Assembly (NCBI GenBank): GCA_902794075.1
Contig: CADBGE010000001.1
Location: 208,137 to 272,136 of the forward strand
Length of the DNA stretch: 64,000 nucleotides
Direction: 5' to 3'
Source of the DNA: an uncultured Erysipelotrichaceae bacterium
GTDB taxonomy: Bacteria > Bacillota_I > Bacilli_A > RF39 > UBA660
Below, piece by piece: positions 13,324-58,773 of this stretch; within the stretch, counting starts at the first letter, position 1; each line of letters begins with the position of its first letter. Below the pieces are notes generated by a model that was given only the letters and a program-made list of their open reading frames with translations, was not told where the DNA came from and did no database searches. The translations under genes and the position numbers were made by a program.

Positions 13324-13773
13324 TCATTTAATGAACATTTTTCTTATGTCATCAGGTATTTTTGGCGATCCTTTAAATATATTATTTGTCATACATCCTT
13401 TAGAAAGTTTCCATTTCATAATCCCATCAAGATCCTCAAGTTCAGGACATAAAGAAAACATATTGACCATGTTAAAAATATTTGAAATATCCCATGTATC
13501 AAGTCCAATTATTTGTTCAAGATTTGGACAATTACAGAACATATATTTTGTTTCTGTAAACATAGATGTGTTCCATCCTGTTACATTTATAATTTTAGAT
13601 TCATTTGTTAAGAATTGAAAATCCATTTCTTCAAAGGATCTGTCATTTTCAAAATATATGTCACTTAAATCTAAAATACCATTTTCTGTTGTTCTTTCTT
13701 TAACTATTTTTTGAAATTCAATTTTATTCTTTACACATGTAACACTTTTATAATCTTTATTTATCTTAATCAT
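13324..13773 (-). CDS. DUF285 / BspA-like repeat protein (149 aa)
   Basis: Contains the W-D-(V/I)-S-N...MF..C..(L/F)-x repeat signature (GWNTSMF...MFCNCPNLEQ...LDTWDISNIFNMVNMFSLCPELE), typical of DUF285 surface-protein repeats. Confidence 0.6.
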   Translation of the reverse strand: MIKINKDYKSVTCVKNKIEFQKIVKERTTENGILDLSDIYFENDRSFEEMDFQFLTNESKIINVTGWNTSMFTETKYMFCNCPNLEQIIGLDTWDISNIFNMVNMFSLCPELEDLDGIMKWKLSKGCMTNNIFKGSPKIPDDIRKMFIK

Positions 13774-29148: not shown

Positions 29149-29177
29149 TTATATCTTAAACAATATTTTTTTTATTT

Positions 29178-29190: not shown

Positions 29191-29193
29191 AAA

Positions 29194-29217
29194 ATGGGTG
29201 GGTGCGCACCCACCCAT
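29194..29217. terminator. Rho-independent terminator (palindrome ATGGGTGGGTGC|GCACCCACCCAT)
   Basis: 12-bp perfect inverted repeat, followed on the minus strand by TTTTATTTTT. Downstream of 29245-30834. Confidence 0.75.
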
Positions 29218-29244
29218 AATTATATTGTTATTTTATTATATCTA

Positions 29245-30834: not shown

Positions 30835-30877
30835 AATTTTTTATAATTTATTAATATATTTTTTCTTAATTTATTTT

Positions 30878-32563
30878 TTAAGGATTTGTAGTTTCTGAAG
30901 TAATACCGTGCATCTGCAAGAAACCTTCAGTTACACCATCAGTTGATGTTCCAGAATCATATTTAAGTGAGCTAGTTAAACTAACAACACCATTAGAAAC
31001 AGTTCCAGCAGTTCCATCAAGAGTTACACCAGTTATGTGTGATACAGAAGCAGTCTCAAGTGCCTCAACTTTAGTCTCAAGAGTATCAACACGATCTTCA
31101 AGAGCACTTACCTTAGTATCAATTTCATTAGTAACAGTTCCAAGAATGCTCTTAATAGAAACTACAGAATAAGACTTAGCATTATCAACCTTCCAAATAA
31201 ATACCAAAGCAGGAAGTTCTGCAAGTTCTTCAGTGGATAATGTCATACCACTTGGAAGTTTGGTTGCAACATCACTTTGAGAATTTATATAGTATACAGA
31301 ATCCAAGAACTGATCTTTAGGAATATTAATAGTTCCAATTGTTTCAGAATTCTGAGTTAGTGTATAAACCTTTGCAAAGTCTGTACTATCTGATGGAGTT
31401 ACAGTAACTTTATACTTACCATCAAGCGCAGTTGCATTAGATGCAGCTGCAAGTTCTTTAATCTTACTATCATATTCATCATAGAACTCTTGAACTGTCT
31501 TTTGTCCATCAGTATGCTCAACTGGAGTACCTTCTACAGTAACTGTATAACTATAAGTAACATTAATGTTATCTGCGTCTAATCCACCTTCTATTTGTGA
31601 AGGCTGAATCATACCAGAGATATTGTTTGCATATGTAGTTACACCTGTAAGATCTAACTTAGATTCATCAATCGTTAAACCAGAACTTGTTTCCTTTAAT
31701 TTTCCATCAGAATTTAAAATTAAACCAACTGATACTGCACCATTCTTTTCTATTCCGTCGCCAGTACCTTGAACAAGTATTGTATTAGGTGTTGATGATG
31801 CAACTGAATTAACTGCTCCTTTTACGGCATTATCAATTGTTCTGTCTAATGCATTTACCTTAGTTTCTAATGCATCAAGTGCACCATCTACATTAGTAAC
31901 ACTATTAAATATAGTTGTTGTATTAGAAGGTTCAAATGAAACAGCTGACGCGTCTATTGAAAGATTTCCTTCAGGGAATAAATCATTAACCTTTGCATAA
32001 GCATATTCAAGGTCAGATTTAGCATCAGTTAAATCACTTTCCAATGTACCTACTCGGCTTTCTAATGAATCAATATCAGATTCTGCTGTAGTAACTCGTG
32101 TTGTTAATCCGTCAACATTACCATTAATTGTTGAAATGCTAGAATTCAGTTCTGTTTTATTATTGTCTATCTTTGTATCAATAGCCTCTATAACCTTTTG
32201 AACTGATACATAAGATATTCCATCAGGTCCTCCATTATAATCATTTTCAAGATCACTAAAATAAGAACTATTATCAAATACTATATATGAAGCATAATCT
32301 GGTTTTTGAACGTATGATGAAAAATAAGCAAATGCTTCATTAATAGAATCAGTAAGTGTATTAAATCGTGTATCCTGATTTGTTAATGTTGAATTAATGT
32401 CATCGATATAGCTGTTGACATTATTTAAATCACCACTTAAAGTATCAAGATAACTTCTTACGTCTATACCATTTTTATATTCTACATAGTACGATAACGT
32501 AATTGGTAACAACGCATTACCTTGATTGTCTTTCAGTAATATATTTTTATAGTTTGTTGCCAT
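30878..32563 (-). CDS. Tail fibre paralog (561 aa)
   Basis: N-terminus MATNYKNILLKDNQGNALLPITLSYYVEY. Coiled-coil-like segments (LESRVGTLESDLTDAKSDLEYAYAKVNDL). Confidence 0.65.
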   Translation of the reverse strand: MATNYKNILLKDNQGNALLPITLSYYVEYKNGIDVRSYLDTLSGDLNNVNSYIDDINSTLTNQDTRFNTLTDSINEAFAYFSSYVQKPDYASYIVFDNSSYFSDLENDYNGGPDGISYVSVQKVIEAIDTKIDNNKTELNSSISTINGNVDGLTTRVTTAESDIDSLESRVGTLESDLTDAKSDLEYAYAKVNDLFPEGNLSIDASAVSFEPSNTTTIFNSVTNVDGALDALETKVNALDRTIDNAVKGAVNSVASSTPNTILVQGTGDGIEKNGAVSVGLILNSDGKLKETSSGLTIDESKLDLTGVTTYANNISGMIQPSQIEGGLDADNINVTYSYTVTVEGTPVEHTDGQKTVQEFYDEYDSKIKELAAASNATALDGKYKVTVTPSDSTDFAKVYTLTQNSETIGTINIPKDQFLDSVYYINSQSDVATKLPSGMTLSTEELAELPALVFIWKVDNAKSYSVVSIKSILGTVTNEIDTKVSALEDRVDTLETKVEALETASVSHITGVTLDGTAGTVSNGVVSLTSSLKYDSGTSTDGVTEGFLQMHGITSETTNP

Positions 32564-32601
32564 ATTTTTTTGTAATATATATTATGTATTTTAGTTTTTT
32601 A

Positions 32602-33783
32602 TTATTCTTGTGACTGTATAAATGCATCACTTAACTTATAATCTTTTCCAAATGTATCGTATTCTGAATACTTACTTACATATGTATATATATTAGTTAC
32701 TTCAGTATTCATATCATTTCTAAGTTGTGCAATATCATCTGCATTATTATTTATTAATGTTGTTAAGTCGTTCTTTGCATCACTAATACTATTGTCAATA
32801 TAGTTCTTGACATTTGACATGTCACCAACCCAATTTCCGTTCTCATCTATGAACTTAAACTTACTTTCAGCATTTGCAAGAACAACTTCATTGTTTACTA
32901 CAAGTTGTCCAAGTTCATTAATATATATAGATCTATTATCTACTATCTCAGACGTATTTACACTAACTTTATTGTCATCACTAATGTTTATACCAAAACC
33001 TGCTGTATATGAATGTATATACGATAATATATTAGTTACATCTATTGTATGCTGAGCAGCAAGTTCATCAACAACTCCAGACAATTCACTATTAAGTTGG
33101 ATTAAGTATTCTCGAAGTTGAGTTAGCTTATCATCAGTTTCATTTGATAACTTTTCAATGTTTGACGAAGTATATGCGTATGCTAAATCATTATTTCCAG
33201 ATACTATTCCTTGAAGTTGCGCAACTTCATTATCTATTTCAGTTAACTTATCTGATGTTTCACTAAATAATGAATAAGCATATTCATATGACAAATCCTG
33301 TGCCTCATTTATGTCACGTGATAATTCATAATGCTTTTGAGCAGATCTTTCTTCAAGATCATTTACTAATGACTGAGATCGTGAATATGAATATTCTAAG
33401 TTTCTTTCTATTAATTCATTGGCCTGATTTATTTTATTAAATGCATCAGATAGACCACTAGTTATTTGAGAATTAAGAATAGCAAGTTCATCATCTAAAT
33501 TCTTAGTGTTGTCAATAAGAACATATGCTGATGAAGTTATTGGATATAATTTTCCATCTTCATTATTATTTATCATCACAGGAGTACCTGCTCCAGTTGA
33601 TGCGAAAATATCGTCAATCTTATCAAATCTTGGAAAATTCTTGGTAAATTCATATGAAGTATGAAGACTATCTATGATTTCATTGATTTTTCCAACTGTT
33701 GCATTATATTCATATGCATGAAGTATATTACCACGATACTTTATTGGAATGTTAAGATGTTCAATATATGTTAATTCTGCCAT
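32602..33783 (-). CDS. Fibre-associated coiled-coil protein (paralog of 35573-36226)
   Basis: Shares the N-terminal motif NIPIKYRGNILHAYEYNATVGKINEIIDSLH with TIPRKFKGDTLHALEFNDVVDKINEIRRHLN of 35573. Confidence 0.6.
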   Translation of the reverse strand: MAELTYIEHLNIPIKYRGNILHAYEYNATVGKINEIIDSLHTSYEFTKNFPRFDKIDDIFASTGAGTPVMINNNEDGKLYPITSSAYVLIDNTKNLDDELAILNSQITSGLSDAFNKINQANELIERNLEYSYSRSQSLVNDLEERSAQKHYELSRDINEAQDLSYEYAYSLFSETSDKLTEIDNEVAQLQGIVSGNNDLAYAYTSSNIEKLSNETDDKLTQLREYLIQLNSELSGVVDELAAQHTIDVTNILSYIHSYTAGFGINISDDNKVSVNTSEIVDNRSIYINELGQLVVNNEVVLANAESKFKFIDENGNWVGDMSNVKNYIDNSISDAKNDLTTLINNNADDIAQLRNDMNTEVTNIYTYVSKYSEYDTFGKDYKLSDAFIQSQE

Positions 33784-33816
33784 ACAGTTAAGTGATATGA
33801 AACTATTTTATATATA

Positions 33817-33832
33817 ATATAATTAAAAATAA
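33817..33832 (-). promoter_or_regulatory. Promoter-like ATTTTTAATTATAT motif upstream of start at 33783
   Basis: Motif family as above. Downstream of terminator 33852-33877 in the direction of transcription. Confidence 0.4.
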
Positions 33833-33851
33833 TTTAGAATGAAAGCATAAA

Positions 33852-33877
33852 AAATCCTGGTCTTAAGACCAGGATTT
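33852..33877. terminator. Rho-independent terminator (AAATCCTGGTCTTAAGACCAGGATTT)
   Basis: Perfect 11-bp stem. On the minus strand it is followed by TTTTTTAT. Downstream of fibre 33903-35525. Confidence 0.75.
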
Positions 33878-33902
33878 GTTCATTTATGTTAAATTAGAAT
33901 TT

Positions 33903-35525
33903 TTAGAGAGATACATCATCAATATTGGTGAAACCTGTAGCTTCCTCAAAATATACACCAGCAGCAAGTACTTCATCAACAGTATGAGTAGTTGCAGATG
34001 TATCAGAACCAATCTTGTAAGTATTTGAAGTATTAATCTGATTAGCATTAACTGTAACTTCACCGTTTGCATTAGGTGCTTGGTTATTTACTTTCTTAAC
34101 TGCAGCGCCGTTAAGTGTATCGATGCGAGCTGCAAGTTTTCCTAATGTGTTGTTATCTGTATTAGCATTACCAAGTAATTCTGTCTTAACTGCAGCAGCA
34201 GCTCCCGCAGCTTCAACTTCAACAGAATCAACGGCAGTAATCTTACCATCAACTTCAGTAACACCACTTACAACGAATGTACCATTATGCTGTGCTGTAC
34301 CGGTTGCATCAAGATCTGCATCAAGTGCTTCAATAGCAGTTTGGATTTGAGTAGCAACTGAACCACCATTACCAAGTTCACCTTCAATACGTGCGATTGC
34401 CTGTGCAACAGTTTCCTCAGTAACATTGTTTTGAGCATCAGCTTCACGATAAATAATCTTGGACGCAGCAATCTTACCAATTGTCGCTGTAATCTTATGA
34501 TTTGCATCCTGTGATAATGTTACTTCAGCGGTAGATTCTACTGAGTTATATTCAATAAGTGAAGCAACATCAATATAGAACGGATTACCATTTTGAATTG
34601 TCAACTTAATGAATGTACCATCATTGTTCTCACCATCTTTATATACAATTTCACCACTAACTGCAACTAAGTCCTTAGGAATATTGATAGTACCTATAGA
34701 ATTACCGCCTTGAGAAATTGTGTACACTTTAAGAACATCACCTGAGCCAGCTGCTTCAGTTAATGATACAGTGTAACTTGATTTAAGAGCATTAATTTCA
34801 CTAGTTAATGCAGCATCAGCAGCCTGATAAGCAGTAATGATTGCACTATCAGCAGCGGTATAAGAAGAAATAATAGCAGTATCTGCTTGAGTATAACCAG
34901 TGATGATTGCAGCATCAGCGTTTTCATAAGCAGTAATGATAGCAGAATCAGCCTCTTCAGAAGCAGTCTTTGTAATATAAGCAGCCTCAATAGCATTTAC
35001 CTTATTTGTAAGAGTTTGTAAACCTTCTGAAGTTGCAATAGAACCAAGATCTACATAGCGACCGTTTGTCTCATCACTTGCAACAGTAACAAACGTATCA
35101 TTCAACTTAACTTTTGATAAGAACTTGCCATCAGCATAATCTTTAGCATTTTGCTCAGCAGCATTTGCTTTTGTTTCAGCCCATGCATAAGAATTTGCTT
35201 GAGCAGCAGCAGCATCAGCAGCAGATTGAGCATATGCAAGTGCAAGATATGCAGTGTCTTGTGCATCTACATAATTAGCAACAGCACGTTGATTTTCAAG
35301 AACTCCTTCAAGAGCATTCTTTATTTTGGTTAAATCAGCATCCCAAGCTGCTTTGTTAGTGTTGACATAACTTACAAGAGCCTGCAATGCGTCTTGTACT
35401 GATTTGGAGGTCCAGCCACCATCAATGTCTAAACCTGTAATTGCAGATACTTGTACAAGTTGTGATCTGGTCAACGGTAGTACAACACTACCTTGACGAT
35501 CTTTAAGTTTTATAACTTTTGCCAT
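33903..35525 (-). CDS. Tail fibre paralog with intragenic 10-aa tandem repeat
   Basis: N-terminus MAKVIKLKDRQGSVVLPLTRSQLVQV. Contains 5 copies of AD(S/A/T)AII(T/S).Y..., encoded by a 30-bp DNA tandem repeat at about 34806-34960. The C-terminal 'NIPKD' beta module is shared with 30878. Confidence 0.7.
   Translation of the reverse strand: MAKVIKLKDRQGSVVLPLTRSQLVQVSAITGLDIDGGWTSKSVQDALQALVSYVNTNKAAWDADLTKIKNALEGVLENQRAVANYVDAQDTAYLALAYAQSAADAAAAQANSYAWAETKANAAEQNAKDYADGKFLSKVKLNDTFVTVASDETNGRYVDLGSIATSEGLQTLTNKVNAIEAAYITKTASEEADSAIITAYENADAAIITGYTQADTAIISSYTAADSAIITAYQAADAALTSEINALKSSYTVSLTEAAGSGDVLKVYTISQGGNSIGTINIPKDLVAVSGEIVYKDGENNDGTFIKLTIQNGNPFYIDVASLIEYNSVESTAEVTLSQDANHKITATIGKIAASKIIYREADAQNNVTEETVAQAIARIEGELGNGGSVATQIQTAIEALDADLDATGTAQHNGTFVVSGVTEVDGKITAVDSVEVEAAGAAAAVKTELLGNANTDNNTLGKLAARIDTLNGAAVKKVNNQAPNANGEVTVNANQINTSNTYKIGSDTSATTHTVDEVLAAGVYFEEATGFTNIDDVSL
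34806..34960. repeat. 30-bp period intragenic tandem repeat (about 5 copies) within fibre gene
   Basis: Repeating GCAGCATCAGC...GTAATGATNGCA units are visible directly in the sequence. They encode the decapeptide repeat ADxAIIxxYx. Confidence 0.7.
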
Positions 35526-35572
35526 AGTATTTTTATAATTTTATTATATATATTTCTATTATTTAAAAAATA

Positions 35573-36226
35573 TTAATCATGATATTCACCATCATATAGA
35601 TCATCATTATTGTCATATATGATTTTTTGTTCAACTGTTGGTTCAGTTCTTACATCATAATCAAATGTAAGAGTCGTGTCATTTATATGAGTGTATAAAC
35701 GTGTGTATGATTCATCAGTATATTCTTTTGCTTGTTCTACAGATGATTGAACTGCAGCTGTATATGAATTTTCTATTCTATCATCTACAGTATTTAATTC
35801 ATCCTTCATATCGTTTATTTCATTACCATATATACCTAAAGTTTCACCAATTGAATCAAGATTAGATAATATATCATTAATGTTTGAACTATTTGTAGAA
35901 ATTTTTTCATCTGATGAATTAAGCTTAATATTTATTTCATTTAATTCATCAAGTATTGATTTTGTGGAATTTTCATTAATAGGTATATTATCTGCTCTTA
36001 ATGACAATTGAACATTATTTATCTTATCCAATATATATGAAGTTGTTTCTGTTATTGTGTCGCGGACTGGTCCATTTAAATGTCTGCGTATTTCATTTAT
36101 CTTATCTACAACATCATTAAATTCTAATGCGTGTAGTGTGTCACCCTTAAATTTTCTAGGTATAGTTAAACTATCTATAAAGGTCATTGTTTCATTGATA
36201 TTGTCATATATATCGTTCATACACAA
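35573..36226 (-). CDS. Fibre-associated coiled-coil protein (paralog of 32602-33783)
   Basis: See 32602-33783. It opens the fibre cassette in the direction of transcription. Confidence 0.6.
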   Translation of the reverse strand: MCMNDIYDNINETMTFIDSLTIPRKFKGDTLHALEFNDVVDKINEIRRHLNGPVRDTITETTSYILDKINNVQLSLRADNIPINENSTKSILDELNEINIKLNSSDEKISTNSSNINDILSNLDSIGETLGIYGNEINDMKDELNTVDDRIENSYTAAVQSSVEQAKEYTDESYTRLYTHINDTTLTFDYDVRTEPTVEQKIIYDNNDDLYDGEYHD

Positions 36227-45576: not shown

Positions 45577-46650
45577 TCATTTATGTTCTTTACGAATTTT
45601 TTCAAGCAATTTTCTTTCTTCTTTATTGATTGATGTAGGCATGATTACATTTATTATATATCTATATTCATATCCATTTATTGTACCTCCATATATGTTC
45701 GCTTCATTTTGCGTGCATTCCTTTAACTTTAGATTAATTGTCTTTCCATTTGGAATTGTCATTTTCATTTCTTTACCAATAATTGCGTCATAATATGGAA
45801 CATCAATCTTTTCATATATTGTTCTTCCTTGTACAAGATATTTATTCTTATCATACTGATGAAGCAATATGACTTGTAAATCTCCAGTAGGTGCTCCAGG
45901 AGTCTTACTTTCACATCCTGCACCATTTATAACAAGTGTATGTCCATTTTGACATCCTTTAGGAATATTAATCGTTACACTATTTTCTTTACTAATTAGA
46001 CCTTCACCATGGCATTTTTTACATTTATTCTTAATGATTTTTCCAGTGGCGCCACAGTATTGGCATGGATGAGAATTCTGTACCATTCCAAATCCAGTTC
46101 TATGAATCTCTGTGATCATACCAGTTCCATGACAATGCGGGCAAGTATCAACTCCAGTACCACCAGTTCCGTTACAGTCAGTACATCTTACATTACGATT
46201 ATATTTAAATGTTTTTTCTCCACCGTCAAGAATCTCCTTAATTCCAATTCCAACTTGTATTCTCAAGTTCTGACCAGGTTCTGGTCCTCTTGGTTGCTGT
46301 TGACGAGGTCTTCCACTGCCTCCAAAGAAACGTTCGAATCCTCCTAAATCAAAATCATCAAAGAATGAACTGAAATGAGAGAACATATCCGCACCACCAG
46401 ACCAGCCTTGCCCATAATTGTCCATACTTCCGTATCGGTCATAATGCGCTCTCTTGTTAGCATCAGACAAGCATTCATATGCTTCCTGGACATCCTTGAA
46501 GTTTTCCTCAGCTTTCTTTTTCTCATCATCTGACTTTCCTGCCTGTCTATCCGGATGATACTTCAAACACATTTTCTTATACTGCTTCTTTAAGTCATCT
46601 TCTGTGAAGTTCTTATCAACTCCTAAAATTTTATAGTAGTCTTTAGCCAT
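45577..46650 (-). CDS. dnaJ: DnaJ (Hsp40) co-chaperone, full type I
   Basis: J domain with HPD (DYYKILGV...YHPDRQ). G/F-rich region. Four CxxCxGxG zinc-finger repeats (CTDCNGTG, CPHCHGTG, CQYCGATG, CKKCHGEG). C-terminal substrate-binding domains. Confidence 0.9.
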   Translation of the reverse strand: MAKDYYKILGVDKNFTEDDLKKQYKKMCLKYHPDRQAGKSDDEKKKAEENFKDVQEAYECLSDANKRAHYDRYGSMDNYGQGWSGGADMFSHFSSFFDDFDLGGFERFFGGSGRPRQQQPRGPEPGQNLRIQVGIGIKEILDGGEKTFKYNRNVRCTDCNGTGGTGVDTCPHCHGTGMITEIHRTGFGMVQNSHPCQYCGATGKIIKNKCKKCHGEGLISKENSVTINIPKGCQNGHTLVINGAGCESKTPGAPTGDLQVILLHQYDKNKYLVQGRTIYEKIDVPYYDAIIGKEMKMTIPNGKTINLKLKECTQNEANIYGGTINGYEYRYIINVIMPTSINKEERKLLEKIRKEHK

Positions 46651-46712: not shown

Positions 46713-47258
46713 TCAATCGTTATACAATATAATGATTTTAAATTTTTCTATATTGTCAACATCAAACTTTCCTCTCTTAAAAAGTGATCTTCCTATTATA
46801 TACATCAGCACATCATCATCTTTTATACGAATAAGCTGTACGTTGTTCTTTGATGCTCGAGAATTTGATTGAAACAACAATTCAGATAAATCTTCTTCAT
46901 TTGCAATAGTAATAATTTCTTTCAACATTTTATTCTTCCCATAATTGTCAGGGCGATACTTATGATACCATAATAATTTGATATGATCATATTCATTAAT
47001 GTTATTTATTATTTCATCAGCAAAATTAAGTAATCTATTGGTAACACCTCCATCTTTATCTGTGACCCATAGCCAGGTATATTGGATTGCATCTTTTGAA
47101 ACTTTCGCATCAATATTTTGCGGATCACACCATATTTTCTTTGCAAGTTCCAATAATTGACTTGCCGTATCTATGTAATCTTTGTTGATAATTAATTTTT
47201 CATCAAATCGTTTATTGATGATAAGACGTTCTTCTATATGCTGAGACAATGATTTCAT
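46713..47258 (-). CDS. Hypothetical protein with CTS-like N-terminus (MKSLSQHIEE)
   Basis: 181 aa. The N-terminus carries the family signature followed by the (E)KLIINK(D/N)(Y/F) second motif shared with 47255, 50630 and 54273. Confidence 0.6.
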   Translation of the reverse strand: MKSLSQHIEERLIINKRFDEKLIINKDYIDTASQLLELAKKIWCDPQNIDAKVSKDAIQYTWLWVTDKDGGVTNRLLNFADEIINNINEYDHIKLLWYHKYRPDNYGKNKMLKEIITIANEEDLSELLFQSNSRASKNNVQLIRIKDDDVLMYIIGRSLFKRGKFDVDNIEKFKIIILYND

Positions 47259-47950
47259 TTTTCTAGTACATCAAATATTTCTTTAGTATATTTATACATT
47301 TTTTCACATTCTTCATATATATCAAATATTTCTCTTAATGACTTTGGATGAACTGCTTTACCATTTGGTGTTTTTAACTTATTTTCACGAATGAATTTTC
47401 GTGCTTCCTTTGATGAATTGAACAGCATACCGTTAAACGTGGTATAAAAGCCATGTGCTGTTTTTCCTAAATTATTTATTCTTGATGATGTATCTATAAA
47501 ATTCCATTTTGCATAAAAACCGAACAAGTTATCAAGAAGATAATCGCCAAGTTTATCTTTTAATCTATATAAACCCCATATCCAATTGTCCATACCATAT
47601 CTGCTGTCATACGGTGAATCATTTAGATTTGTTTTGTTTTCTTTTTTAATGAATAAATGCGGTTCTCCATCAACATCATATACCTTATAAATGAACTTAT
47701 AAATCATTTTATTCTCTTCATAATATTGGTTCATTATATCTGCAACTGATGTAGATATTTTAGTTGTGTCTTTTAATGAATCTATATCAAATTCTTTAAA
47801 ATCTTTATTAACTATTAACTTTTCAGCAATATTTACATTTTGATGTAAAGCTTTGCTTTCAGCAATATTTACATTTTGATGTAAAGCTTTGCTTTCAGCA
47901 ATATATTTTTCAACAATATTTTCATTAATATATTTGACTAATGATTTCAT
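47255..47950 (-). CDS. Hypothetical protein with CTS-like N-terminus (MKSLVKYINE) and internal 12-aa duplication
   Basis: 231 aa. AESKALHQNVNI is repeated twice, encoded by a 36-bp DNA tandem repeat at 47822-47893. ATGA overlap with the downstream gene. Confidence 0.6.
   Translation of the reverse strand: MKSLVKYINENIVEKYIAESKALHQNVNIAESKALHQNVNIAEKLIVNKDFKEFDIDSLKDTTKISTSVADIMNQYYEENKMIYKFIYKVYDVDGEPHLFIKKENKTNLNDSPYDSRYGMDNWIWGLYRLKDKLGDYLLDNLFGFYAKWNFIDTSSRINNLGKTAHGFYTTFNGMLFNSSKEARKFIRENKLKTPNGKAVHPKSLREIFDIYEECEKMYKYTKEIFDVLEK
47822..47905. repeat. 36-bp in-frame tandem duplication (2.3 copies) inside CDS 47255-47950
   Basis: TTCAGCAATATTTACATTTTGATGTAAAGCTTTGCT occurs twice, plus a partial third copy. 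Confidence 0.8.
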
Positions 47951-48631: not shown

Positions 48632-50548
48632 TCATTTGACTTCCTCAGCTTGTACATCTTCAGCATCCTTGAATGGATTGTCTCCACCCATCTGAGCAAA
48701 TGGATTGCTCTGCGCTTGCTGAGACTGTTCACCTTGCTTTGGAGCAGATTCCTGATAGATTCTAGTGATGATTGGTTGATAGTAATCCTCAAGTGCCTTA
48801 CGAGCAGGCTCAATCTTCTCGAGATCCTTTGTCTGCAGTTGTTCATCAAATTCTTTCAGAAGTTCATTAATCTTCTCTTTCTCCTCATCAGTGAACTTGC
48901 TGCCCATGTGCTCATCCTTCAATGATGCTTCAACGGCATACTTATATCCTTCTGCAGTATTCAGCTTGTCAATCTCTTCTTTCTTTTTCTTGTCCTCTTC
49001 AGCATGATCTGCAGCATCTTTCTTGATACGGTCAATTTCTTCTTGAGATAGCGAATTGCCCTTCTCAATAGTGATGTGTTGTTCCTTTTGAGTACCAAGA
49101 TCCTTTGCAGTGACTGTCAAGATACCGTTAGCATCCATCTCAAATGTAACCTCAATCTGAGGAACGCCACGAGGAGCAGGAGCAATGCCGTCCAAGTTGA
49201 ATTGACCAATGATCTTATTGTCACGACTCATAGGACGCTCACCCTGAAGAACAATGATACTTACTGCAGGTTGGTTATCAACAGCAGTTGTGAATACTTG
49301 AGACTTACGAACAGGAATAGTTGTGTTTGCATCAATCAATTTACCCATCTGACTTCCGTTCACCTCGATACCGAGTGAGATAGGTGTTACATCAAGAAGA
49401 AGAACATCAGTGTCAGAAGTGTTGCCCACCAAGATGTTTGCCTGGATTGCAGCACCTTCAGCTACAGCAAGGTCAAGGTCAGCTTTATGAATTAATTCAA
49501 CACCGAACTTATCGGTAAGACGCTTCTGAAGAAGAGGAATACGGCAAGAACCACCAACCAAGATAATACCATCAAGAGTACAGTTTGCCTTTTCACGAGC
49601 ATCCTCAGCACACTTGATTACTTTATCTACATACTTGCTTGCGATATTCTCAAATGCTGCTTTGTTAAGTTTCTTAACAAAGTGTTTAGGCATACCGTCA
49701 ATTGCTGTAATATATGGTAGGTTAATTTCAGTCTCAGTAACTCCTGACAGTTCAATCTTTGCTTTCTCTGCAGCCTCAACTACACGTTGCATAGCCATAG
49801 GATCCTTGCTTAAGTCAAAATTCTCCTGTTTCTTGAACTCATCAACGATCCATTGTGCGACTGCATTGTCAATATCTGCACCACCAAGCCATGTATCGCC
49901 ATAACTTGAAAGTACTTCAATCAGTTGAGAATCTTTGTCATAATCAAGAACAGTTACATCTGTAGTGGAACCACCAAAATCCACAACAGCATACTTACCT
50001 GATTTCTCCAGTTTACTTGCAAGACATGCCGCAGTAGGCTCATTGATGATACGCAATACATTTAGACCAGCAAGTTCACCAGCCTCTTTAGTAGCATTAC
50101 GCTGTGAATCATCAAACAATGCAGGAACTGTAATGACAGCATCTTCGACGGAATGGCCAAGATATTCCTCAGCCTGCTTCTTTAGTTCTTGAAGAATCCA
50201 TGAACTGATTTCTTGTGGAGAATACTCCTTATCGTTAATCTTTACATAGGGATAGCCATTATGATTCACAACATCATAATGCAAGTGCTTGATAGCATCC
50301 TGAGCTTCTTCCCAGTTGCGTCCAATTAGTCTCTTAATTAAATTGATTGTTTGTTTAGGTTTCATCAACATTTGACGCTTTGCTGATGAGCCTACACGAC
50401 GCTCACCATTGTCATCGATGTTGACTACTGATGGAAATGTTTTAGAACCTTCTGCGGTAAGTACAATAGCCGGACGGCCGTTTTCCATCACACATACTTC
50501 CGACATTGTTGACCCAAGGTCAACACCAATTGCTTTCTTGTTGCTCAT
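48632..50548 (-). CDS. dnaK: Hsp70-family chaperone (divergent DnaK homolog)
   Basis: 638 aa. N-terminal phosphate-1 motif AIGVDLGSTMSEV (compare IGIDLGTTNS). DFGGSTTDVTVL (compare DLGGGTFD). ILVGGSCRIPLLQ (compare LVGGQTRMP). A substrate-binding domain and a charged C-terminal tail follow. Confidence 0.85.
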   Translation of the reverse strand: MSNKKAIGVDLGSTMSEVCVMENGRPAIVLTAEGSKTFPSVVNIDDNGERRVGSSAKRQMLMKPKQTINLIKRLIGRNWEEAQDAIKHLHYDVVNHNGYPYVKINDKEYSPQEISSWILQELKKQAEEYLGHSVEDAVITVPALFDDSQRNATKEAGELAGLNVLRIINEPTAACLASKLEKSGKYAVVDFGGSTTDVTVLDYDKDSQLIEVLSSYGDTWLGGADIDNAVAQWIVDEFKKQENFDLSKDPMAMQRVVEAAEKAKIELSGVTETEINLPYITAIDGMPKHFVKKLNKAAFENIASKYVDKVIKCAEDAREKANCTLDGIILVGGSCRIPLLQKRLTDKFGVELIHKADLDLAVAEGAAIQANILVGNTSDTDVLLLDVTPISLGIEVNGSQMGKLIDANTTIPVRKSQVFTTAVDNQPAVSIIVLQGERPMSRDNKIIGQFNLDGIAPAPRGVPQIEVTFEMDANGILTVTAKDLGTQKEQHITIEKGNSLSQEEIDRIKKDAADHAEEDKKKKEEIDKLNTAEGYKYAVEASLKDEHMGSKFTDEEKEKINELLKEFDEQLQTKDLEKIEPARKALEDYYQPIITRIYQESAPKQGEQSQQAQSNPFAQMGGDNPFKDAEDVQAEEVK

Positions 50549-50629: not shown

Positions 50630-51136
50630 TTAATGATGTATCTCATTAAAAATTTCTTTTAATGAATCAAATATTTCTTTGTCTATTATAAAATAATTTA
50701 CTGCTGTTCCAGGATATTCTAATGAGGACTTGTTAAATAATGATATGTTTTTTAATTGCTGTGCTTCTACATAACGAATTTGAACATCATTAATGTATCT
50801 AATTCGAATGTCATCATATAAATTTACATATTTGTCATGTCTTTGTAAACGATGAACTAAAAATAAATTTTGTATAACTTCATTAAAGCCACATACATAT
50901 TCACCTTCATTGGCAATGACATTCATCTTATTGAATGATATCTCTTTACCAGACCTTTTTATATAATTAATTATGTCTTTAAACGCATTTTTATCTTTTG
51001 TGTTAATTGTATATAAATGAGATGACCATGAATAGCTTCTTAAAGTATCTTCAAAACTTTCTGATTTGAAATTTTTGTTGATGACAAGTTTTTCATTAAA
51101 AAATGACTCATGCAAATGCTGTTTTAATGATTTCAT
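50630..51136 (-). CDS. Hypothetical protein with CTS-like N-terminus (MKSLKQHLHE)
   Basis: The ORF-track start at 51172 is a GTG that overlaps the upstream stop. The first ATG (51136) gives the family N-terminus MKSLKQHLHESFFNEKLVINKNF, so it was preferred. Confidence 0.55.
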   Translation of the reverse strand: MKSLKQHLHESFFNEKLVINKNFKSESFEDTLRSYSWSSHLYTINTKDKNAFKDIINYIKRSGKEISFNKMNVIANEGEYVCGFNEVIQNLFLVHRLQRHDKYVNLYDDIRIRYINDVQIRYVEAQQLKNISLFNKSSLEYPGTAVNYFIIDKEIFDSLKEIFNEIHH

Positions 51137-53925: not shown

Positions 53926-54276
53926 TTATGATTCTAATTTTTCCAATGCGTCAGGCCCTTCATATTCATAATCACCCCATAAATCATTTTCATCAACCCA
54001 ATTCAAAAAATTAATTAATGGAATAATGTCATCTTTTATATTATTTCTATTTATGACTGGCCAATTATTTGTATCATCAAGAACATCATATAGATCGTTC
54101 ATTTGTTGTTTTTCTTCATCAGATAATACATTCCAATATTCAGAATACTTTTTTATTTCAGAATCTTCACCAATATTTCCTGTTAATAGACCGACCAAGG
54201 ATGCTATAGCGTCTCTTTCACTTTCTGTTAGTTTAAAATATCTTGTTTCATTTATATAAGTTATTAATGATTTCAT
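53926..54276 (-). CDS. Hypothetical acidic protein with CTS-like N-terminus (MKSLITYINE)
   Basis: 116 aa. Last gene of a 3-gene overlapping MKSL array. Confidence 0.6.
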   Translation of the reverse strand: MKSLITYINETRYFKLTESERDAIASLVGLLTGNIGEDSEIKKYSEYWNVLSDEEKQQMNDLYDVLDDTNNWPVINRNNIKDDIIPLINFLNWVDENDLWGDYEYEGPDALEKLES

Positions 54277-55073
54277 TCTACTCCTTTTGGTTTATATTTA
54301 TTTACTATATTGCAATTACTGAACATTTTGTCCGTTTTTGCTGTATCTTTAATTTTCCATTTACTTAAGTTACAATTAAAATTTTCGCACCATCCAAACA
54401 TCCAAGAAAAATTCTCTCCTTTACTAACATTCCATTTACTTAAATCATAATTAAATTTTGAACAACCATAAAACATTGAATCAAAGTTTGTTGAATTACT
54501 TACATCCCATTTACTTAAATCTGAATTGAAATTTGGGCAGTTAAAGAACATTTTTTTAAAAGTCTGGCCGTTTCTAACATTCCATTTTCTTAAATCGCCA
54601 TTAAATTTTATACAGTCTTCAAACATCCAATAAAAAAATTCTCCATTACTTACATCCCATTCGCTTAAGTTTTGATTAAATTTTTTACATTCATAAAACA
54701 TTGCTCCAAAATTCTCTCCATTGCGAACATCCCAATTGCTTAAGTCGCAATTGAATTTTTTACACCCATAAAACATATAATAAAAATCCTTACCATTACT
54801 TACATCCCATTTACTAATATCAAAATCTTTATTTCCGGTATTTTTATCTTGTAGAAACAATTTGCTAAAATCAGTTATTTCGGATACGTCTATATCATTT
54901 AAGTCATATATGCCTTTATTATAATGTTCACGTATTGCTAATTCTAATTCATTTCTGTCTTTTGGGTGATAATTATAAATGTCACTATAATTTTTATTAA
55001 TGACAAGTTTTTCATCTACTTGTGATGGAATAATGATAAGTTTTTCAGATATGTAATTTATTAATGACTTCAT
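54273..55073 (-). CDS. DUF285 / BspA-like repeat protein with CTS-like N-terminus (MKSLINYISE)
   Basis: About 7 tandem 23-aa repeats SKWDVSNG..F..MF..C.KFN.DL. The N-terminus has the family motif plus EKLVINKNY. Confidence 0.7.
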   Translation of the reverse strand: MKSLINYISEKLIIIPSQVDEKLVINKNYSDIYNYHPKDRNELELAIREHYNKGIYDLNDIDVSEITDFSKLFLQDKNTGNKDFDISKWDVSNGKDFYYMFYGCKKFNCDLSNWDVRNGENFGAMFYECKKFNQNLSEWDVSNGEFFYWMFEDCIKFNGDLRKWNVRNGQTFKKMFFNCPNFNSDLSKWDVSNSTNFDSMFYGCSKFNYDLSKWNVSKGENFSWMFGWCENFNCNLSKWKIKDTAKTDKMFSNCNIVNKYKPKGVE

Positions 55074-55453
55074 TTCATAAAATTAAATTTTTTTCTATTA
55101 AAAACTACAATACCAATATTATCATTAAGTATTGTATCATAATTATATATCTCACGATCATCATCAACATTAACTATAATTCCGTTATCTGAACTTTCAT
55201 ATTTATATATATTTGATGTATCAACAATATTATAATATGAAGAATCTGTTTCAATAATTTTACAGATTACATATTCATTGTCATTACCAAATTCTTTATT
55301 TTCTAATTTATTAAATATTCTTTTAATGCTATTTTCATTTTCAATAGCAATTCCTAAAACAATATTATCTGGTATTCTATTACCACTTTCTGAACATTTA
55401 AGTCTGAATGGTGCTGGGCCGCGTTCATTAATGTATTCTACTAAACTTTTCAT
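55070..55453 (-). CDS. Hypothetical protein with CTS-like N-terminus (MKSLVEYINE)
   Basis: The ORF-track start at 55495 adds 14 AT-rich codons. The internal ATG at 55453 gives a near-consensus family N-terminus, so it was preferred. Confidence 0.55.
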   Translation of the reverse strand: MKSLVEYINERGPAPFRLKCSESGNRIPDNIVLGIAIENENSIKRIFNKLENKEFGNDNEYVICKIIETDSSYYNIVDTSNIYKYESSDNGIIVNVDDDREIYNYDTILNDNIGIVVFNRKKFNFMK

Positions 55454-55550: not shown

Positions 55551-56372
55551 ATGAGAACTACAGTAAAACTAAATAGTAAGGGCGAAGATGTAAAGTATCT
55601 TCAGAAGCTTCTTGGTTTGACAGCTGATGGAGCTTTTGGTCCAAAGACAGACTCTGCAGTAAAAAAGTTCCAGAAAGATCATAGTCTTGTTGCTGACGGT
55701 ATAGTCGGAGCAAAGACGTGGGCAGAACTTGAGAAACTAAACGCGTCAAAGCCCGCTGTTTCAACAGTTAATTCAAAGCAAGTTGACCCATCAGTAATAT
55801 ATGCACCTCTTAAATGCTGCTTATCAAAACTTGCGAATAGACAAATCAAATACATAGCAATTCATTACACTGCAGGTGGAAGTTCTACACCAGGCCGTGC
55901 AATCAGCATGAAGAATTCTTGGGAGAACACAAAGAGAGCTTCAGCGGACTTTGGTGTTGATGACAGAGACATAGTCCAATTCAACCCAGATCCTAAGAAC
56001 TATTATTGCTGGTCAGTCGGTGACAAGAAGGCAGCTCATGTAAATGTTCCTGATGGACGAAATAGTAACACAATAAATATTGAGATATGTTCAAATCTTA
56101 GAAAAGGAACAAGTGCAGCAGTACCAAATCATGAAGGTTGGTACTATACAGACAAGGCAATTGAGAATGCAATCAAGTTAACGAAGATCCTGATGAAGAA
56201 GTATAATATTCCTGTTGAAAGAGTCGTTCGTCATTATGACATCAGTGGTAAACTTTGCCCGGGTATCATTGGTTGGAATGATGGTCAACTATACGACACA
56301 AATGGAAAGTTATTAGTAGGAAAAAGAAACAATAGTAATAAATGGAAAAAATTTAAGAATAAGCTGAAATGA
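55551..56372 (+). CDS. Endolysin: N-terminal peptidoglycan-binding domain + N-acetylmuramoyl-L-alanine amidase (Amidase_2/PGRP)
   Basis: PG_binding_1-like LGLTADGAFGPKTDSAVKKFQKDHSLVADGIVGAKTW. Amidase_2 features IAIHYTAGG...RVVRHYDISGKLCPG. Confidence 0.85.
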   Translation: MRTTVKLNSKGEDVKYLQKLLGLTADGAFGPKTDSAVKKFQKDHSLVADGIVGAKTWAELEKLNASKPAVSTVNSKQVDPSVIYAPLKCCLSKLANRQIKYIAIHYTAGGSSTPGRAISMKNSWENTKRASADFGVDDRDIVQFNPDPKNYYCWSVGDKKAAHVNVPDGRNSNTINIEICSNLRKGTSAAVPNHEGWYYTDKAIENAIKLTKILMKKYNIPVERVVRHYDISGKLCPGIIGWNDGQLYDTNGKLLVGKRNNSNKWKKFKNKLK

Positions 56373-58032: not shown

Positions 58033-58773
58033 TTAAAATGATTTTACAAATTTAATAAGTTCAGCAGGAATATTGTGATATGTGAATATTGCTTCCTCTT
58101 CTTTCATTGCAGTATCTTTATATATTGGAATATTGTGAACATGGTTAAAATCAATTTTTAATACTGAAATATTATCATTGCAATTTAATATCTTATCACA
58201 AAAATCTTTTACTTTATCGGTTAATTTTCCATTGTTAAATATTCTTTCATTTGTTTTATATAAGAAAATACGTTCAGGAAAATTACGATATTTTGCCTTT
58301 TTACATCTTAGCCCATTCTTTAATATACTCTCCACATTTTTTGTATATGTAAAATGATAACAAATATTATGATATTCATTTAAATCAACAGTTTTAGAGT
58401 ATGTTGGTTCAATGAATAATAACTTTGTTTTAATATCAACACCAGACAAATAATACCCATAAAATTCTAAAATTCTTTTGAATTTTTTGTCGTTTGATAA
58501 ATATATGTAATTTGATTTATTTACCTTTATTGTGAATGAGCCATTATCATAATCATCAAATTCTATTTCATATTCATTATTGAATTCTTGAAATAACTTT
58601 GATTTTAGTTTTTCAACATCATGTGAATTTAAAGCTTCAAGAATATAATCAATGTTTGCGTCAATATTATTGGGATCTAAATCTTCATTAAAAAAATCAC
58701 ATAATGATTCATAGTATTGTCTCCACCAAAATTTCTTTGAACTTTCATTAATAAATTCTTTTAATGTTTTCAT
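58033..58773 (-). CDS. ADP-ribosyltransferase-fold (Tpt1/PARP-like) protein with CTS-like N-terminus (MKTLKEFINE)
   Basis: Paralog of 61847-62755 (ILEFYGYYLSG...HNICYHFTYTKNVESILKNGLRCKKAKYRNFPERIFLY versus IIEFYGYYISG...HNICYHFTDNKSAESILKNGLRCKSGSYREYPERIYLY). H-x-T...GL...R pattern. Confidence 0.55.
   Translation of the reverse strand: MKTLKEFINESSKKFWWRQYYESLCDFFNEDLDPNNIDANIDYILEALNSHDVEKLKSKLFQEFNNEYEIEFDDYDNGSFTIKVNKSNYIYLSNDKKFKRILEFYGYYLSGVDIKTKLLFIEPTYSKTVDLNEYHNICYHFTYTKNVESILKNGLRCKKAKYRNFPERIFLYKTNERIFNNGKLTDKVKDFCDKILNCNDNISVLKIDFNHVHNIPIYKDTAMKEEEAIFTYHNIPAELIKFVKSF

What the first reader, a model, noticed from the sequence alone, without database searches (positions are those of the whole stretch)
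53926..55453. Three consecutive overlapping leader-family genes including a DUF285 repeat protein
53926-54276, 54273-55073 and 55070-55453 are joined by ATGA overlaps (translational coupling). Each starts with MKSL(I/V).YI(N/S)E. The middle gene is about 7 tandem DUF285/BspA-like repeats (SKWDVSNG..F..MF..C.KFN.DL). A second DUF285 protein lies at 13324-13773.

This looks like a locally amplified cassette of leader-tagged cargo. DUF285 repeat proteins are unusual phage cargo and may bind host surface or intracellular targets.
Basis: seen in the sequence. Interest (0 to 1): 0.6.

Follow-up and report, generated by a model that had tools for sequence, protein, structure and literature searches.

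The report
Leader-tagged gene trio with inserted repeat-protein cassette
Three overlapping genes of a roughly 400-kb gut phage share a 10-residue N-terminal tag that closely resembles the phage T4 signal for loading proteins into the capsid, and the middle gene, a leucine-rich-repeat-like DUF285 protein, is a single-gene cassette inserted between two otherwise conserved neighbours.

Summary
Three minus-strand ORFs (127, 266 and 116 aa) are joined by ATGA overlaps, and each starts MKSL..YI.E. The middle one is a DUF285 protein with seven exact 25-residue repeats.

- The three cargos are unrelated, so this is not a local amplification.
- The outer two genes are conserved, always-adjacent orthologues. 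In four distinct relatives they overlap each other directly. The DUF285 gene is therefore a precise one-gene insertion, flanked by a 15/16-nt direct repeat made of leader codons.
- DUF285 is not unusual in phages. It occurs in 113 phage records, and there are at least 7 more copies in 20 kb elsewhere in this genome.

The leader is a separable module under protein-level selection.
- It sits on 25 of 125 genes sampled from this phage and on 0 of 511 internal Met positions.
- Its conserved positions (4, 7, 8, 10) are the ones that matter in the T4 capsid targeting sequence (MKTYQEFIAE).
- Extra leader cassettes all end in hydrophobic-x-Glu, the T4 prohead-protease cleavage motif.

Best explanation (inferred, about 0.5): a T4-type propeptide loads these proteins into the capsid for injection.

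Caveats:
- The prohead protease of this genome could not be reached.
- The same tag sits on enzymes in other phages.
- Cleavage and packaging are untested.

The parts
55070..55453 (-). Gene 1: 127-aa leader-tagged protein (acidic, pI 4.8; small alpha/beta fold with no known relatives). A conserved orthologue in the phage clade.
   Evidence: 68 clusters, 57-100% id; leader residues M1 K2 L4 V5 Y7 I8 E10 invariant; AF2 pLDDT 87.5; helix 4-11; no fold match in PDB or BFVD.
55424..55453 (-). Leader codons 1-10 of gene 1 (MKSLVEYINE).
   Evidence: amino-acid differences between orthologues are 0.06 in the leader against 0.28 in the rest of the gene, and synonymous differences are present.
54273..55073 (-). 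Gene 2: 266-aa DUF285 / BspA-like LRR-type repeat protein. A lineage-specific one-gene insertion between genes 1 and 3.
   Evidence: (absent at this position in L023, L024, L025, L027).
55058..55073 (-). Left copy of the direct repeat flanking the insert (ATGAAGTCATTAATAA, leader codons 1-5 of the DUF285 gene), including the ATGA overlap with gene 1.
54261..54276 (-). Right copy of the direct repeat (ATGAAATCATTAATAA, leader codons 1-5 of gene 3), 15/16 identical to the left copy, including the ATGA overlap.
55011..55043 (-). Extra leader cassette KLIIIPSQVDE (residues 11-21), ending V-D-E. Predicted disordered linker.
   Evidence: pLDDT about 50 for residues 12-30; a 10-aa cassette indel relative to the closest homologue, P0001.
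54816..55010 (-). KLVINKNY boundary motif plus the N-terminal cap of the DUF285 solenoid (residues 22-86).
   Evidence: the leaderless paralogue aligns from this motif onwards.
54291..54815 (-). Seven exact 25-residue DUF285 repeats (S.W[DN]VS.....MF..C..FN.[DN]L), residues 87-261.
54281..54286 (-). AAGGAG, Shine-Dalgarno-like, inside the conserved C-terminal KPKGVE tail of the DUF285 gene, with 4 nt between it and the ATG of gene 3.
   Evidence: The same tail precedes other leader genes in L020.
53926..54276 (-). Gene 3: 116-aa leader-tagged, very acidic (pI 4.05) protein. A conserved orthologue and a member of a wider family with 84 representative relatives.
13324..13773 (-). Leaderless DUF285 paralogue that starts exactly at the (K)INKDY boundary motif.
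46713..47950 (-). Second ATGA-coupled pair of leader genes (181 and 231 aa). Their leaders carry extra cassettes (ERLIINKRFD; AESKALHQNVNI x2).
50630..51136 (-). Leader gene (168 aa, MKSLKQHLHE...EKLVINKNF).
58033..58773 (-). Leader gene (246 aa, MKTLKEFINE). This is the closest match in the window to the T4 ipI/ipIII N-termini.

Best explanation
Shown:
- The locus is a conserved two-gene, translationally coupled operon (127-aa and 116-aa proteins). It is divergently transcribed from the amidase endolysin gene of a roughly 400-kb, 30% GC gut phage.
- One cassette of a massively expanded DUF285 (LRR-like solenoid) gene family has been inserted exactly at the ATGA junction between these two genes.
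- All three genes, and about a fifth of the genes sampled from this genome, begin with a modular leader, M-K-[ST]-L-x-x-[YF]-I-x-E. It is predicted to form a short amphipathic helix ahead of the folded cargo.

Inferred mechanism:
- The leader is the counterpart of the T4 capsid targeting sequence, the N-terminal propeptide of the internal proteins (IPII/IPIII, MKTYQEFIAE).
- It would bind the prohead scaffolding core and so load the cargo into the capsid.
- The T4-type prohead protease would then cut after Glu10, and after the hydrophobic-x-Glu that ends each extra leader cassette.
- The mature proteins would be ejected with the DNA into the next host.
- There the DUF285 solenoids and the small acidic proteins would bind host targets such as defence proteins, as T4 IPI* does.

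The shared leader coding sequence also provides the short homology by which single leader-plus-cargo units are inserted, lost and shuffled.
For: Insertion
- In four distinct relatives the 124-127-aa gene overlaps the 115/116-aa gene directly, with no DUF285 gene between them (L023, L024, L025, L027). Synteny is the same (amidase, RtcB, YqeY, HSP70).
- The insert in the window is bounded by 15/16-identical 16-mers made of leader codons.
- L027 carries a DUF285 gene at a different place.
- The closest homologue, P0001 (73% identity), lies in another locus of a relative. It differs by a leader-cassette indel and by repeat number.

The leader is a separable module
- It is present on unrelated cargos.
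- It is absent from some members of the 116-aa family and from the 13324 paralogue, which start exactly at the cargo boundary. It is doubled in P0190 and P0192.
- AF2 places it as helix 4-11, followed in the DUF285 protein by a low-confidence linker.

Selection acts on the protein
- Codons vary synonymously while residues 1, 2, 4, 7, 8 and 10 are kept.

Resemblance to T4
- ipIII and ipII start MKTYQEFIAE, and ipI starts MKTFKEF....
- T4 mutagenesis maps targeting to residues 4 and 7 and processing to residues 8 and 10 (PMC9026906).
- A profile built only from the metagenomic leaders ranks ipIII and ipII 4th and 5th among 1487 Met-initiated 10-mers of T4.
- Seven different extra-cassette types all end [LIVF]-x-E. 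This is the same pattern as the T4 gp21 cleavage sites in IPs, gp22, gp21 and Alt.

Context in other phages
- In T4-like contigs L088 and L118, a gene with the same leader sits between the portal/gp67-like genes and the prohead protease gene.
- Another leader family, next to gp4, weakly matches a PHROG annotated as 'virion structural protein' (E=1.6e-4).

Nature of the phage
- The window has a gp32-like SSB and T4-type tail-fibre matches.
- Contig size, GC content and an eIF-1A gene fit the 'Jug' phages. These are described as T4-like and as having a prohead protease (PMC12880540).

Precedent
- Two DUF285 proteins were detected in virions of the giant virus AaV (PMC7507832).
Against: - No cleavage, packaging or injection data exist for these proteins.
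That the phage is a Jug phage is itself an inference.
- About 20% of sampled genes carry the leader. This implies on the order of 100 packaged species, far more than in T4.
- In IMG/VR contigs the same 10-residue N-terminus is attached to polynucleotide kinase/phosphatase, cytidylyltransferase and GroES-like proteins. These are not obvious capsid cargo.
- Leader-bearing loci are not significantly more often T4-like than control loci (54/120 against 10/32).
- T4 internal proteins are described as basic. The 127-aa and 116-aa cargos here are acidic.
- Synonymous divergence in the leader is somewhat lower than in the rest of the gene (0.17-0.23 against 0.30-0.32). Some DNA- or RNA-level constraint is therefore not excluded.
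Confidence: 0.5

Rival explanations
1. The leader is a protein tag that acts inside the infected cell, not a capsid signal. It could be a handle for the phage-encoded DnaK/DnaJ chaperones, for a localisation or assembly factor, or for timed proteolysis. The tagged proteins would then act in the cell where they are made.
For: - The tag is an amphipathic helix under protein-level selection.
- DnaK (48632-50548) and DnaJ (45577-46650) are encoded among leader genes.
- The follow-on motif K-L-[VI]-I-N-K is a hydrophobic core flanked by basic residues. From general knowledge, this resembles DnaK-binding peptides.
- In other phages the tag sits on enzymes such as PNK and cytidylyltransferase.
- About 20% of sampled genes are tagged.
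Against: - It does not explain the specific match to the T4 capsid targeting sequence at the functionally mapped positions.
- It does not explain why every extra cassette ends in hydrophobic-x-Glu.
- It does not explain a leader gene inside the portal-protease head cluster of T4-like contigs.
- No evidence of any kind links the tag to chaperones.
Confidence: 0.2
2. The leader is mainly a nucleic-acid-level module: a shared gene-start sequence. It would be kept because it gives efficient translation initiation or re-initiation at ATGA junctions, and because it provides the homology for cassette shuffling. The peptide itself would have no function.
For: - The DUF285 insert is bounded by leader-codon direct repeats.
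- Leader cassettes vary in copy number between near-identical genomes (231 against 219 aa) and between homologues.
- Synonymous divergence is modestly reduced in the leader.
- T4-type phages are known to shuffle genes through short repeated regulatory cassettes (PMC2839356).
Against: - Conservation is position-specific at the amino-acid level (residues 4, 7, 8, 10). Codons at these positions vary: TCA/TCG/AGT, TAT/TAC, ATA/ATT, TTA/TTG/CTA/CTT.
- Intervening residues vary freely.
- The pattern persists across families with under 30% cargo identity.
- A composition-matched control with residues 7 and 8 swapped is at least 9-fold rarer at ORF starts in IMG/VR.
Confidence: 0.15
3. The DUF285 protein is an external virion or cell-surface adhesin, as the name 'BspA-like surface protein' suggests. 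It would be a receptor-binding decoration or a secreted protein. The trio would be a locally amplified structural module.
For: - DUF285 occurs in giant (1800-2700 aa) proteins of jumbo phages PAU and Aeromonas D3, which could be fibres.
- NCBI names the family as surface proteins.
- The window carries a long run of tail-fibre-like genes.
Against: - By inspection there is no signal peptide or anchor. The N-terminus is the amphipathic leader.
- The protein is small and sits between two non-structural-looking small acidic proteins, next to the endolysin and far from the fibre cluster.
- The three genes are not paralogues.
- The gene is absent at this position in relatives.
Confidence: 0.08

Closest known systems
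Phage T4 internal proteins IPI, IPII and IPIII and their capsid targeting sequence (CTS), including the polymorphic IP loci of T4-type phages
   Same: - A roughly 10-residue N-terminal tag on otherwise unrelated small proteins.
- The same residue pattern: MK[ST]-aromatic/Leu-x-x-[FY]-I-x-E against MKTYQEFIAE.
- Conserved positions 4, 7, 8 and 10.
- It ends in the I-x-E protease motif.
- The genes cluster in variable regions. In T4, ipIII and ipII also lie next to the lysozyme gene e.
- Cargo diversity fits an arms race.
   Different: - Scale: about 20% of sampled genes, not 3-4.
- Leaders are extended by reiterated cassettes (EKLVIFPSQVD, EKLIINQRFD, AESKTLHQNVNI and others).
- Cargo includes LRR-like DUF285 solenoids and acidic proteins, rather than small basic proteins.
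- Genes are chained by ATGA overlaps.
- Cleavage and packaging are not demonstrated.
Propeptide-processed head and ejection proteins of giant phages (phiKZ, 201phi2-1, SPN3US), cut by a gp21-like prohead protease
   Same: A large capsid carrying many different packaged proteins, some in paralogous families. N-terminal propeptides are removed after Glu (PMC5694885, PMC7411985, PMC10052503; abstracts).
   Different: From my own knowledge, the motif there is [S/A/G]-x-E with long, non-uniform propeptides. Here it is a uniform 10-residue tag with hydrophobic-x-E. No sequence homology of the cargos was seen.
DUF285 (PF03382) / PARCEL / 'BspA family LRR surface protein' repeats of Mollicutes, Campylobacter, jumbo phages and the giant virus AaV
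   Same: - The same 25-residue repeat: E=3e-52 to the Pfam model.
- Massive paralogous expansion, as in AaV, where 13% of coding regions carry DUF285 and two DUF285 proteins were detected in virions (PMC7507832).
   Different: - Cellular members are lipoproteins or surface proteins, and many jumbo-phage members are giant multi-domain proteins.
- Here the proteins are short (150-300 aa) and leader-tagged, with no export signal.
- They behave as single-gene cassettes.
PeSL mobile regulatory cassettes that mediate modular gene shuffling in T4-type phages (PMC2839356, PMC4122927)
   Same: Single genes are gained or lost by recombination between short repeated sequences flanking them, in plastic regions of T4-type genomes.
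   Different: PeSLs are non-coding promoter plus stem-loop elements. Here the repeat is the coding sequence of the leader itself, and no hairpin or terminator lies at the junctions.

Membership tests
Pfam DUF285 (PF03382) | Whole-protein score above the Pfam gathering threshold | tested here: met
   175.8 bits against a cut-off of 25, E=3.2e-52. The paralogue at 13324-13773 scores 47.1 bits.
Pfam DUF285 (PF03382) | Tandem repeats of about 25 residues forming an LRR-like solenoid | tested here: met
   Seven exact 25-residue units. The AF2 body has pLDDT about 98. All top-50 Foldseek PDB hits are LRR proteins, including TpLRR 6mlx (probability 0.93), but only at E>=0.013 and TM<=0.37. No solved structure matches by sequence.
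T4-type internal proteins with capsid targeting sequence | N-terminal tag of about 10 residues with key residues at positions 4 and 7 and [L/I]-x-E at positions 8-10 | tested here: met
   MKSLVEYINE, MKSLINYISE and MKSLITYINE against T4 MKTYQEFIAE. Information content peaks at positions 2, 4, 7, 8 and 10. Functional positions in T4 are taken from PMC9026906.
T4-type internal proteins with capsid targeting sequence | The tag is separable from the cargo and is found on unrelated cargos in variable loci | tested here: met
T4-type internal proteins with capsid targeting sequence | The phage encodes a gp21-family prohead protease and a scaffolding core | not testable with these tools
   No head genes lie in the window or in the 10 kb beyond its start. 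The rest of the 400-kb contig could not be fetched. Jug phages are reported to be T4-like with a prohead protease (PMC12880540), but assigning this window to them is an inference.
T4-type internal proteins with capsid targeting sequence | The propeptide is cleaved after Glu, and the mature protein is present in the capsid and injected | not testable with these tools
   This needs virion proteomics or genetics.
T4-type internal proteins with capsid targeting sequence | Small basic proteins (typical of the family, not strictly defining) | tested here: not met
   pI is 4.8 (127 aa), 4.05 (116 aa) and 6.2 (DUF285).
BspA-like cell-surface LRR proteins | N-terminal export signal, lipobox or surface anchor | tested here: not met
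   By inspection only. The N-terminus is the charged amphipathic leader, no hydrophobic stretch is present, and AF2 predicts a helix at residues 4-11 followed by a disordered linker.
PeSL-type mobile cassettes | Flanking promoter plus stem-loop repeats | tested here: not met
   No terminator-like hairpin lies at either junction, and promoter-like sites are at the chance level. The flanking repeat is coding.

The most novel reading that the evidence does not exclude
An abundant clade of huge human-gut phages, probably the Bacteroides/Phocaeicola-infecting Jug phages, devotes about a fifth of its genes to an arsenal of capsid-packaged, injected effector proteins. Dozens of these are LRR-like DUF285 binders. 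All are addressed by a T4-like capsid targeting tag that is often extended by reiterated, protease-cleavable cassettes. The arsenal is continually re-sorted because the tag's coding sequence doubles as the recombination joint for single-gene cassette insertion.
Probability: 0.3. Interest if true: 0.8.

Novelty: new variant of a known kind. Interest (0 to 1): 0.6.

Why it matters
If the tag is a capsid-loading signal, simple sequence inspection would list the whole injected proteome of an uncultured but very abundant gut phage. That would amount to about a hundred candidate first-strike effectors or anti-defence proteins.

It would also extend the T4 internal-protein paradigm from three proteins to a large, modular, shuffling system.

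It would give a testable role to DUF285 repeat proteins, a family expanded in many jumbo phages and giant viruses with no known function.

The tag could also serve as a portable handle for loading foreign proteins into such phages.

Even without that, the exact single-gene insertion bounded by leader codons is a clean example of how gene cassettes move within huge phage genomes.

Tried and rejected
- Close relatives in IMG/VR. Searches with the DUF285 protein, with the 116-aa family alignment and with a long leader DNA pattern found nothing. The amidase search gave only distant loci without leaders.
- Finding the prohead protease. The 10 kb beyond the window start holds replication-type genes only.
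- Function of the 116-aa protein. There are no Pfam or PDB hits. A profile search found 84 relatives, some embedded in 500-1100-aa proteins. Only one of these has a Pfam domain, DUF6926.
- The leader in Lak megaphages, PAU, Aeromonas D3, Bo-Finn and Campylobacter CP21. Their DUF285 proteins are giant, or have other N-termini.
- Promoter and terminator scan, and the T4 late-promoter motif TATAAATA. Neither was above chance.
- Enrichment of leader loci in T4-like phages. The difference from the control pattern is not significant (54/120 against 10/32), so this argument was dropped.
- Local gene amplification. Rejected, because the three cargos are unrelated.
Full report
**1. Observation**

The region holds three minus-strand ORFs:
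- 55453..55070, 127 aa from the MKSL Met. An upstream in-frame ATG at 55495 would add 14 residues.
- 55073..54273, 266 aa.
- 54276..53926, 116 aa.

The plus strand reads 'tcat' at 55070-55073 and at 54273-54276. Both junctions are therefore ATGA stop/start overlaps.

The N-termini are MKSLVEYINE, MKSLINYISE and MKSLITYINE.

The middle protein matches Pfam DUF285 at E=3.2e-52. It consists of a leader, an N-terminal cap and seven exact 25-residue repeats at residues 87-261. At DNA level these are 6.3 copies of a 75-nt unit.

The second DUF285 protein at 13324-13773 is real but has no leader. It starts MIKINKDY, with stop codons just upstream in frame.

**2. Source and context**

The window is 30.2% GC.

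The exact 266-aa protein is encoded on 12 assembled contigs, eight of them 0.2-1 Mb long. One is a 400,026-bp ENA contig whose gene order matches the window. The window differs from that contig by one 12-residue repeat copy in the gene at 47255-47950. It therefore comes from a near-identical genome, not necessarily that contig.

Neighbouring genes:
- an Amidase_2/PG_binding endolysin, divergently transcribed, at 55551-56372;
- RtcB, a YqeY-like protein, DnaK and DnaJ;
- a gp32-like SSB and helicases;
- a run of T4-type tail-fibre-like genes;
- a 3155-aa ORF.

The closest cultured relatives of the large helicase are jumbo phages of Bacteroidota and phage PAU.

The contig size, the GC content and an eIF-1A gene just outside the window fit the 'Jug' phages: 360-402 kb, 30% GC, hosts Bacteroides/Phocaeicola. 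The authors call these T4-like and report a prohead protease (PMC12880540). This assignment is my inference. The main text of that paper does not contain the terms DUF285, BspA, N-terminal or paralog.

**3. The leader is a real, widespread, modular N-terminal tag**

*Frequency in this genome.* I sampled about 95 kb (the window, L020 and L029). The pattern M[KR]x[LF]xx[YFH][IL]x[ES] starts 25 of 125 genes and matches 0 of 511 internal Met positions.

*A second locus of the same contig.* L020 has about 20 leader genes in ATGA-type chains, at least seven of them DUF285. There the 10-residue core is often followed by 0-4 copies of short cassettes before a boundary motif KL[VI]INK[ND][YF]. The cassettes are:
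- EKLVIFPSQV[DN]
- EKLIINQRF[DN]
- AESKTLHQNVNI
- SQMKTLHSLNEFI[AN]E
- SDKSSLISLSE
- EKLVIRHQPVD

*All seven cassette types end [LIVF]-x-E*.

*The tag is separable from the cargo.*
- The three proteins of the finding share nothing but the leader.
- The leaderless DUF285 paralogue aligns from the boundary motif onwards.
- In the 116-aa family (84 representative relatives), most members have the leader.
- Some members of that family start exactly at the first cargo motif, some carry leader plus extension, and two have a doubled leader.
- Long proteins carry the domain internally.

*Structure.* AF2 predicts helix 4-11 in both modelled proteins. In the DUF285 protein a low-confidence linker follows at residues 12-30, ahead of a very confident body.

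**4. Level of selection**

Within the genome, the conserved residues are encoded by varying synonymous codons.

| Gene | Region | Amino-acid differences between orthologues | Synonymous differences |
|---|---|---|---|
| 127-aa | leader | 0.06 | 0.17 |
| 127-aa | rest of gene | 0.28 | 0.30 |

The constraint is therefore mainly on the peptide. A minor nucleic-acid-level component is possible.

Of 128 matches, 113 were the first Met of an ORF of at least 50 aa. A composition-matched control with residues 7 and 8 swapped gave 32 loci and 12 such ORF starts.

**5. The DUF285 gene is an inserted cassette**

The 127-aa and 116-aa proteins have orthologues at 57-100% identity (68 and 31 clusters) and nothing more distant in the word-indexed search.

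In four distinct relatives the two genes overlap each other directly, with no DUF285 gene between them. These relatives are L023 (a 125-kb contig), L024, L025 and L027. Their 127-aa orthologues are about 62-84% identical to the window's. Flanking synteny is conserved.

In the window the insert runs exactly from its own ATG to its own stop. It is bounded by ATGAAGTCATTAATAA and ATGAAATCATTAATAA, which are leader codons 1-5 and match at 15 of 16 positions.

Both a nearer and a more distant relative lack the gene here, so a gain in the window's lineage is the more parsimonious reading (inference).

Three observations show that the family is mobile within genomes and evolves by cassette and repeat indels:
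- L027 has a 204-aa DUF285 gene elsewhere, next to a different (Amidase_3) endolysin.
- The closest homologue, P0001 (73% identity), lies in another locus of a relative.
- P0001 differs by a 10-residue leader-cassette indel and by repeat number.

Integration by homologous recombination at leader sequences is the likely mechanism. It is comparable in logic to PeSL-mediated shuffling in T4-type phages (PMC2839356). This is inferred, not shown.

**6. What the leader most likely does**

*Match to T4.* IPIII and IPII start MKTYQEFIAE, and IPI starts MKTFKEFTSTTTPVSTITE.
- The first 10 residues of IPIII suffice to load foreign proteins into the T4 head.
- Residues 4 and 7 matter for targeting, and residues 8 and 10 for cleavage by the gp21 protease (PMC9026906; PMC3012670).
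- These are the positions that carry information in the leader studied here: 2, 4, 7, 8 and 10.

*Profile test.* A profile built only from the metagenomic leaders ranks ipIII and ipII 4th and 5th among 1487 Met-initiated 10-mers in 159 kb of T4. Rank 1 is gene 61.1, MKTFKEFIKE.

*Other T4 examples.*
- IP-locus genes of a T4-like Dhakavirus start MKTYKQFITE and MKTYQEFITE.
- T4 gp22, gp21 and Alt also have N-terminal hydrophobic-x-Glu motifs.

*Genomic position in T4-like contigs.*
- In L088 and L118, a gene with the same leader lies between the portal/gp67-like genes and the prohead protease gene.
- A leader family next to gp4 weakly matches a PHROG annotated as virion structural protein (E=1.6e-4).
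- L100 has a leader-DUF285 gene between gp4 and gp2.

The best-supported reading is therefore a T4-type capsid-targeting propeptide. It would be cleaved after Glu10 and after each cassette, delivering the cargo into the capsid and then into the next host.

**7. Caveats**

- Cleavage and packaging are untested.
- The head genes of this genome were out of reach.
- A fifth of the sampled genes are tagged.
- In other phages the tag sits on PNK modules, a cytidylyltransferase and a GroES-like protein.
- Leader loci are not significantly more often T4-like than control loci.
- The two small cargos are acidic, unlike the basic T4 internal proteins.

I put this reading at about 0.5. The rivals are:
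- an intracellular protein tag, for example for the phage DnaK/DnaJ (0.2);
- a mainly nucleic-acid-level gene-start and recombination module (0.15);
- an external adhesin or structural role (0.08).

**8. Cargo**

*DUF285 protein.* The AF2 model is confident (mean pLDDT 87.5). All top-50 Foldseek PDB hits are LRR proteins, but weakly, and no solved structure matches by sequence. It is an LRR-like solenoid of its own geometry, plausibly a protein binder.

*DUF285 in phages generally.*
- It occurs in 113 phage records, with up to 40 or more places in some Vibrio jumbo phages.
- 1766 database proteins match at E<=1e-10, and many of the short ones carry this kind of leader.
- In the giant virus AaV it occurs in 13% of coding regions, and two members were found in virions.

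*127-aa protein.* It has a confident alpha/beta model with no fold match.

*116-aa protein.* It belongs to a wider phage family with no informative annotation. Only one of the ten longer relatives scanned has a Pfam domain, DUF6926.

**9. Verdict**

What is new relative to the literature I could search is the combination of:
- a T4-CTS-like tag used at very large scale in a huge gut phage;
- reiterated cleavage-motif cassettes;
- leader-bounded single-gene insertion.

I rate it a new variant of a known kind, interest 0.6.

Noticed in passing
window 47255-47950 (-), compared with L009 17124-17783: The leader cassette AESKALHQNVNI is present twice in the window (231 aa) but once in the otherwise near-identical 400,026-bp contig (219 aa). 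Leader cassettes therefore vary in copy number between very close genomes.
   Followed up: partly
window 54277-54300 (-); L020 upstream of 1577-2299, 10001-10648 and 10645-11361: DUF285 genes end in a conserved tail, ..KYKPKGV[E/R/Q]. Its codons contain AAGGAG, with 4 nt between it and the ATG of the next leader gene. Another recurrent C-terminal tail, ..(I/Y)(P/T)(N/E)(W/L)(Y/V)(K/Q)(K/R), precedes other leader genes.
   Followed up: partly
window 58033-58773 (-): A leader-tagged 246-aa protein (MKTLKEFINE) has a weak, sub-threshold Pfam hit to Tpt1/KptA RNA 2'-phosphotransferase (E=0.0057). From my own knowledge that family has an ADP-ribosyltransferase-type fold, which would recall the packaged T4 Alt enzyme. 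I did not pursue this.
   Followed up: no
L031 18966-19130 (T4 gene 61.1): The best match in T4 to the leader profile is not an annotated internal protein but the 54-aa product of gene 61.1 (MKTFKEFIKE...). It might be an unrecognised CTS-bearing protein.
   Followed up: no
window 45577-46650 and 48632-50548 (-): The phage encodes DnaJ and DnaK (HSP70), with leader-tagged genes lying between and beside them. The DnaK gene is conserved in relatives L023 and L025.
   Followed up: no
L023 11315-12511: In the 125-kb relative, a TnpB-like gene (OrfB_IS605 / Cas12f-like TNB) is inserted between RtcB and the YqeY-like gene. It is absent from the window.
   Followed up: no
L027 1332-2632: In this relative the Amidase_2 endolysin next to the locus is replaced by an Amidase_3 enzyme. 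Its gene overlaps a leader-tagged 204-aa DUF285 gene.
   Followed up: partly
window 22841-36220 (-): A run of a dozen or so fibre-like genes. About half of them (seven) share an N-terminal motif (MA..IKL.D..G..LLP[IV]T), and one matches T4-type long-tail-fibre distal-subunit PHROGs. This looks like a large paralogous receptor-binding repertoire.
   Followed up: no
window 2418-11885 (+): A 3155-aa ORF with no PHROG hit. I did not run it against Pfam. The 536-aa ORF just upstream (774-2384) also has no hit.
   Followed up: no
L026 (contig end at 6408) and L017 (contig end): Several metagenomic contigs of relatives break right at or next to leader genes. This fits assembly breaks caused by the repeated leader sequence or by population-level presence/absence of cassettes.
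   Followed up: no
L048, L084 and others (IMG/VR): In other phage contigs the same 10-residue N-terminus is attached to HAD-phosphatase and P-loop-kinase halves of polynucleotide kinase, and to a cytidylyltransferase-ATPase fusion. RNA-repair or NAD-type enzymes may therefore also be tagged.
   Followed up: partly
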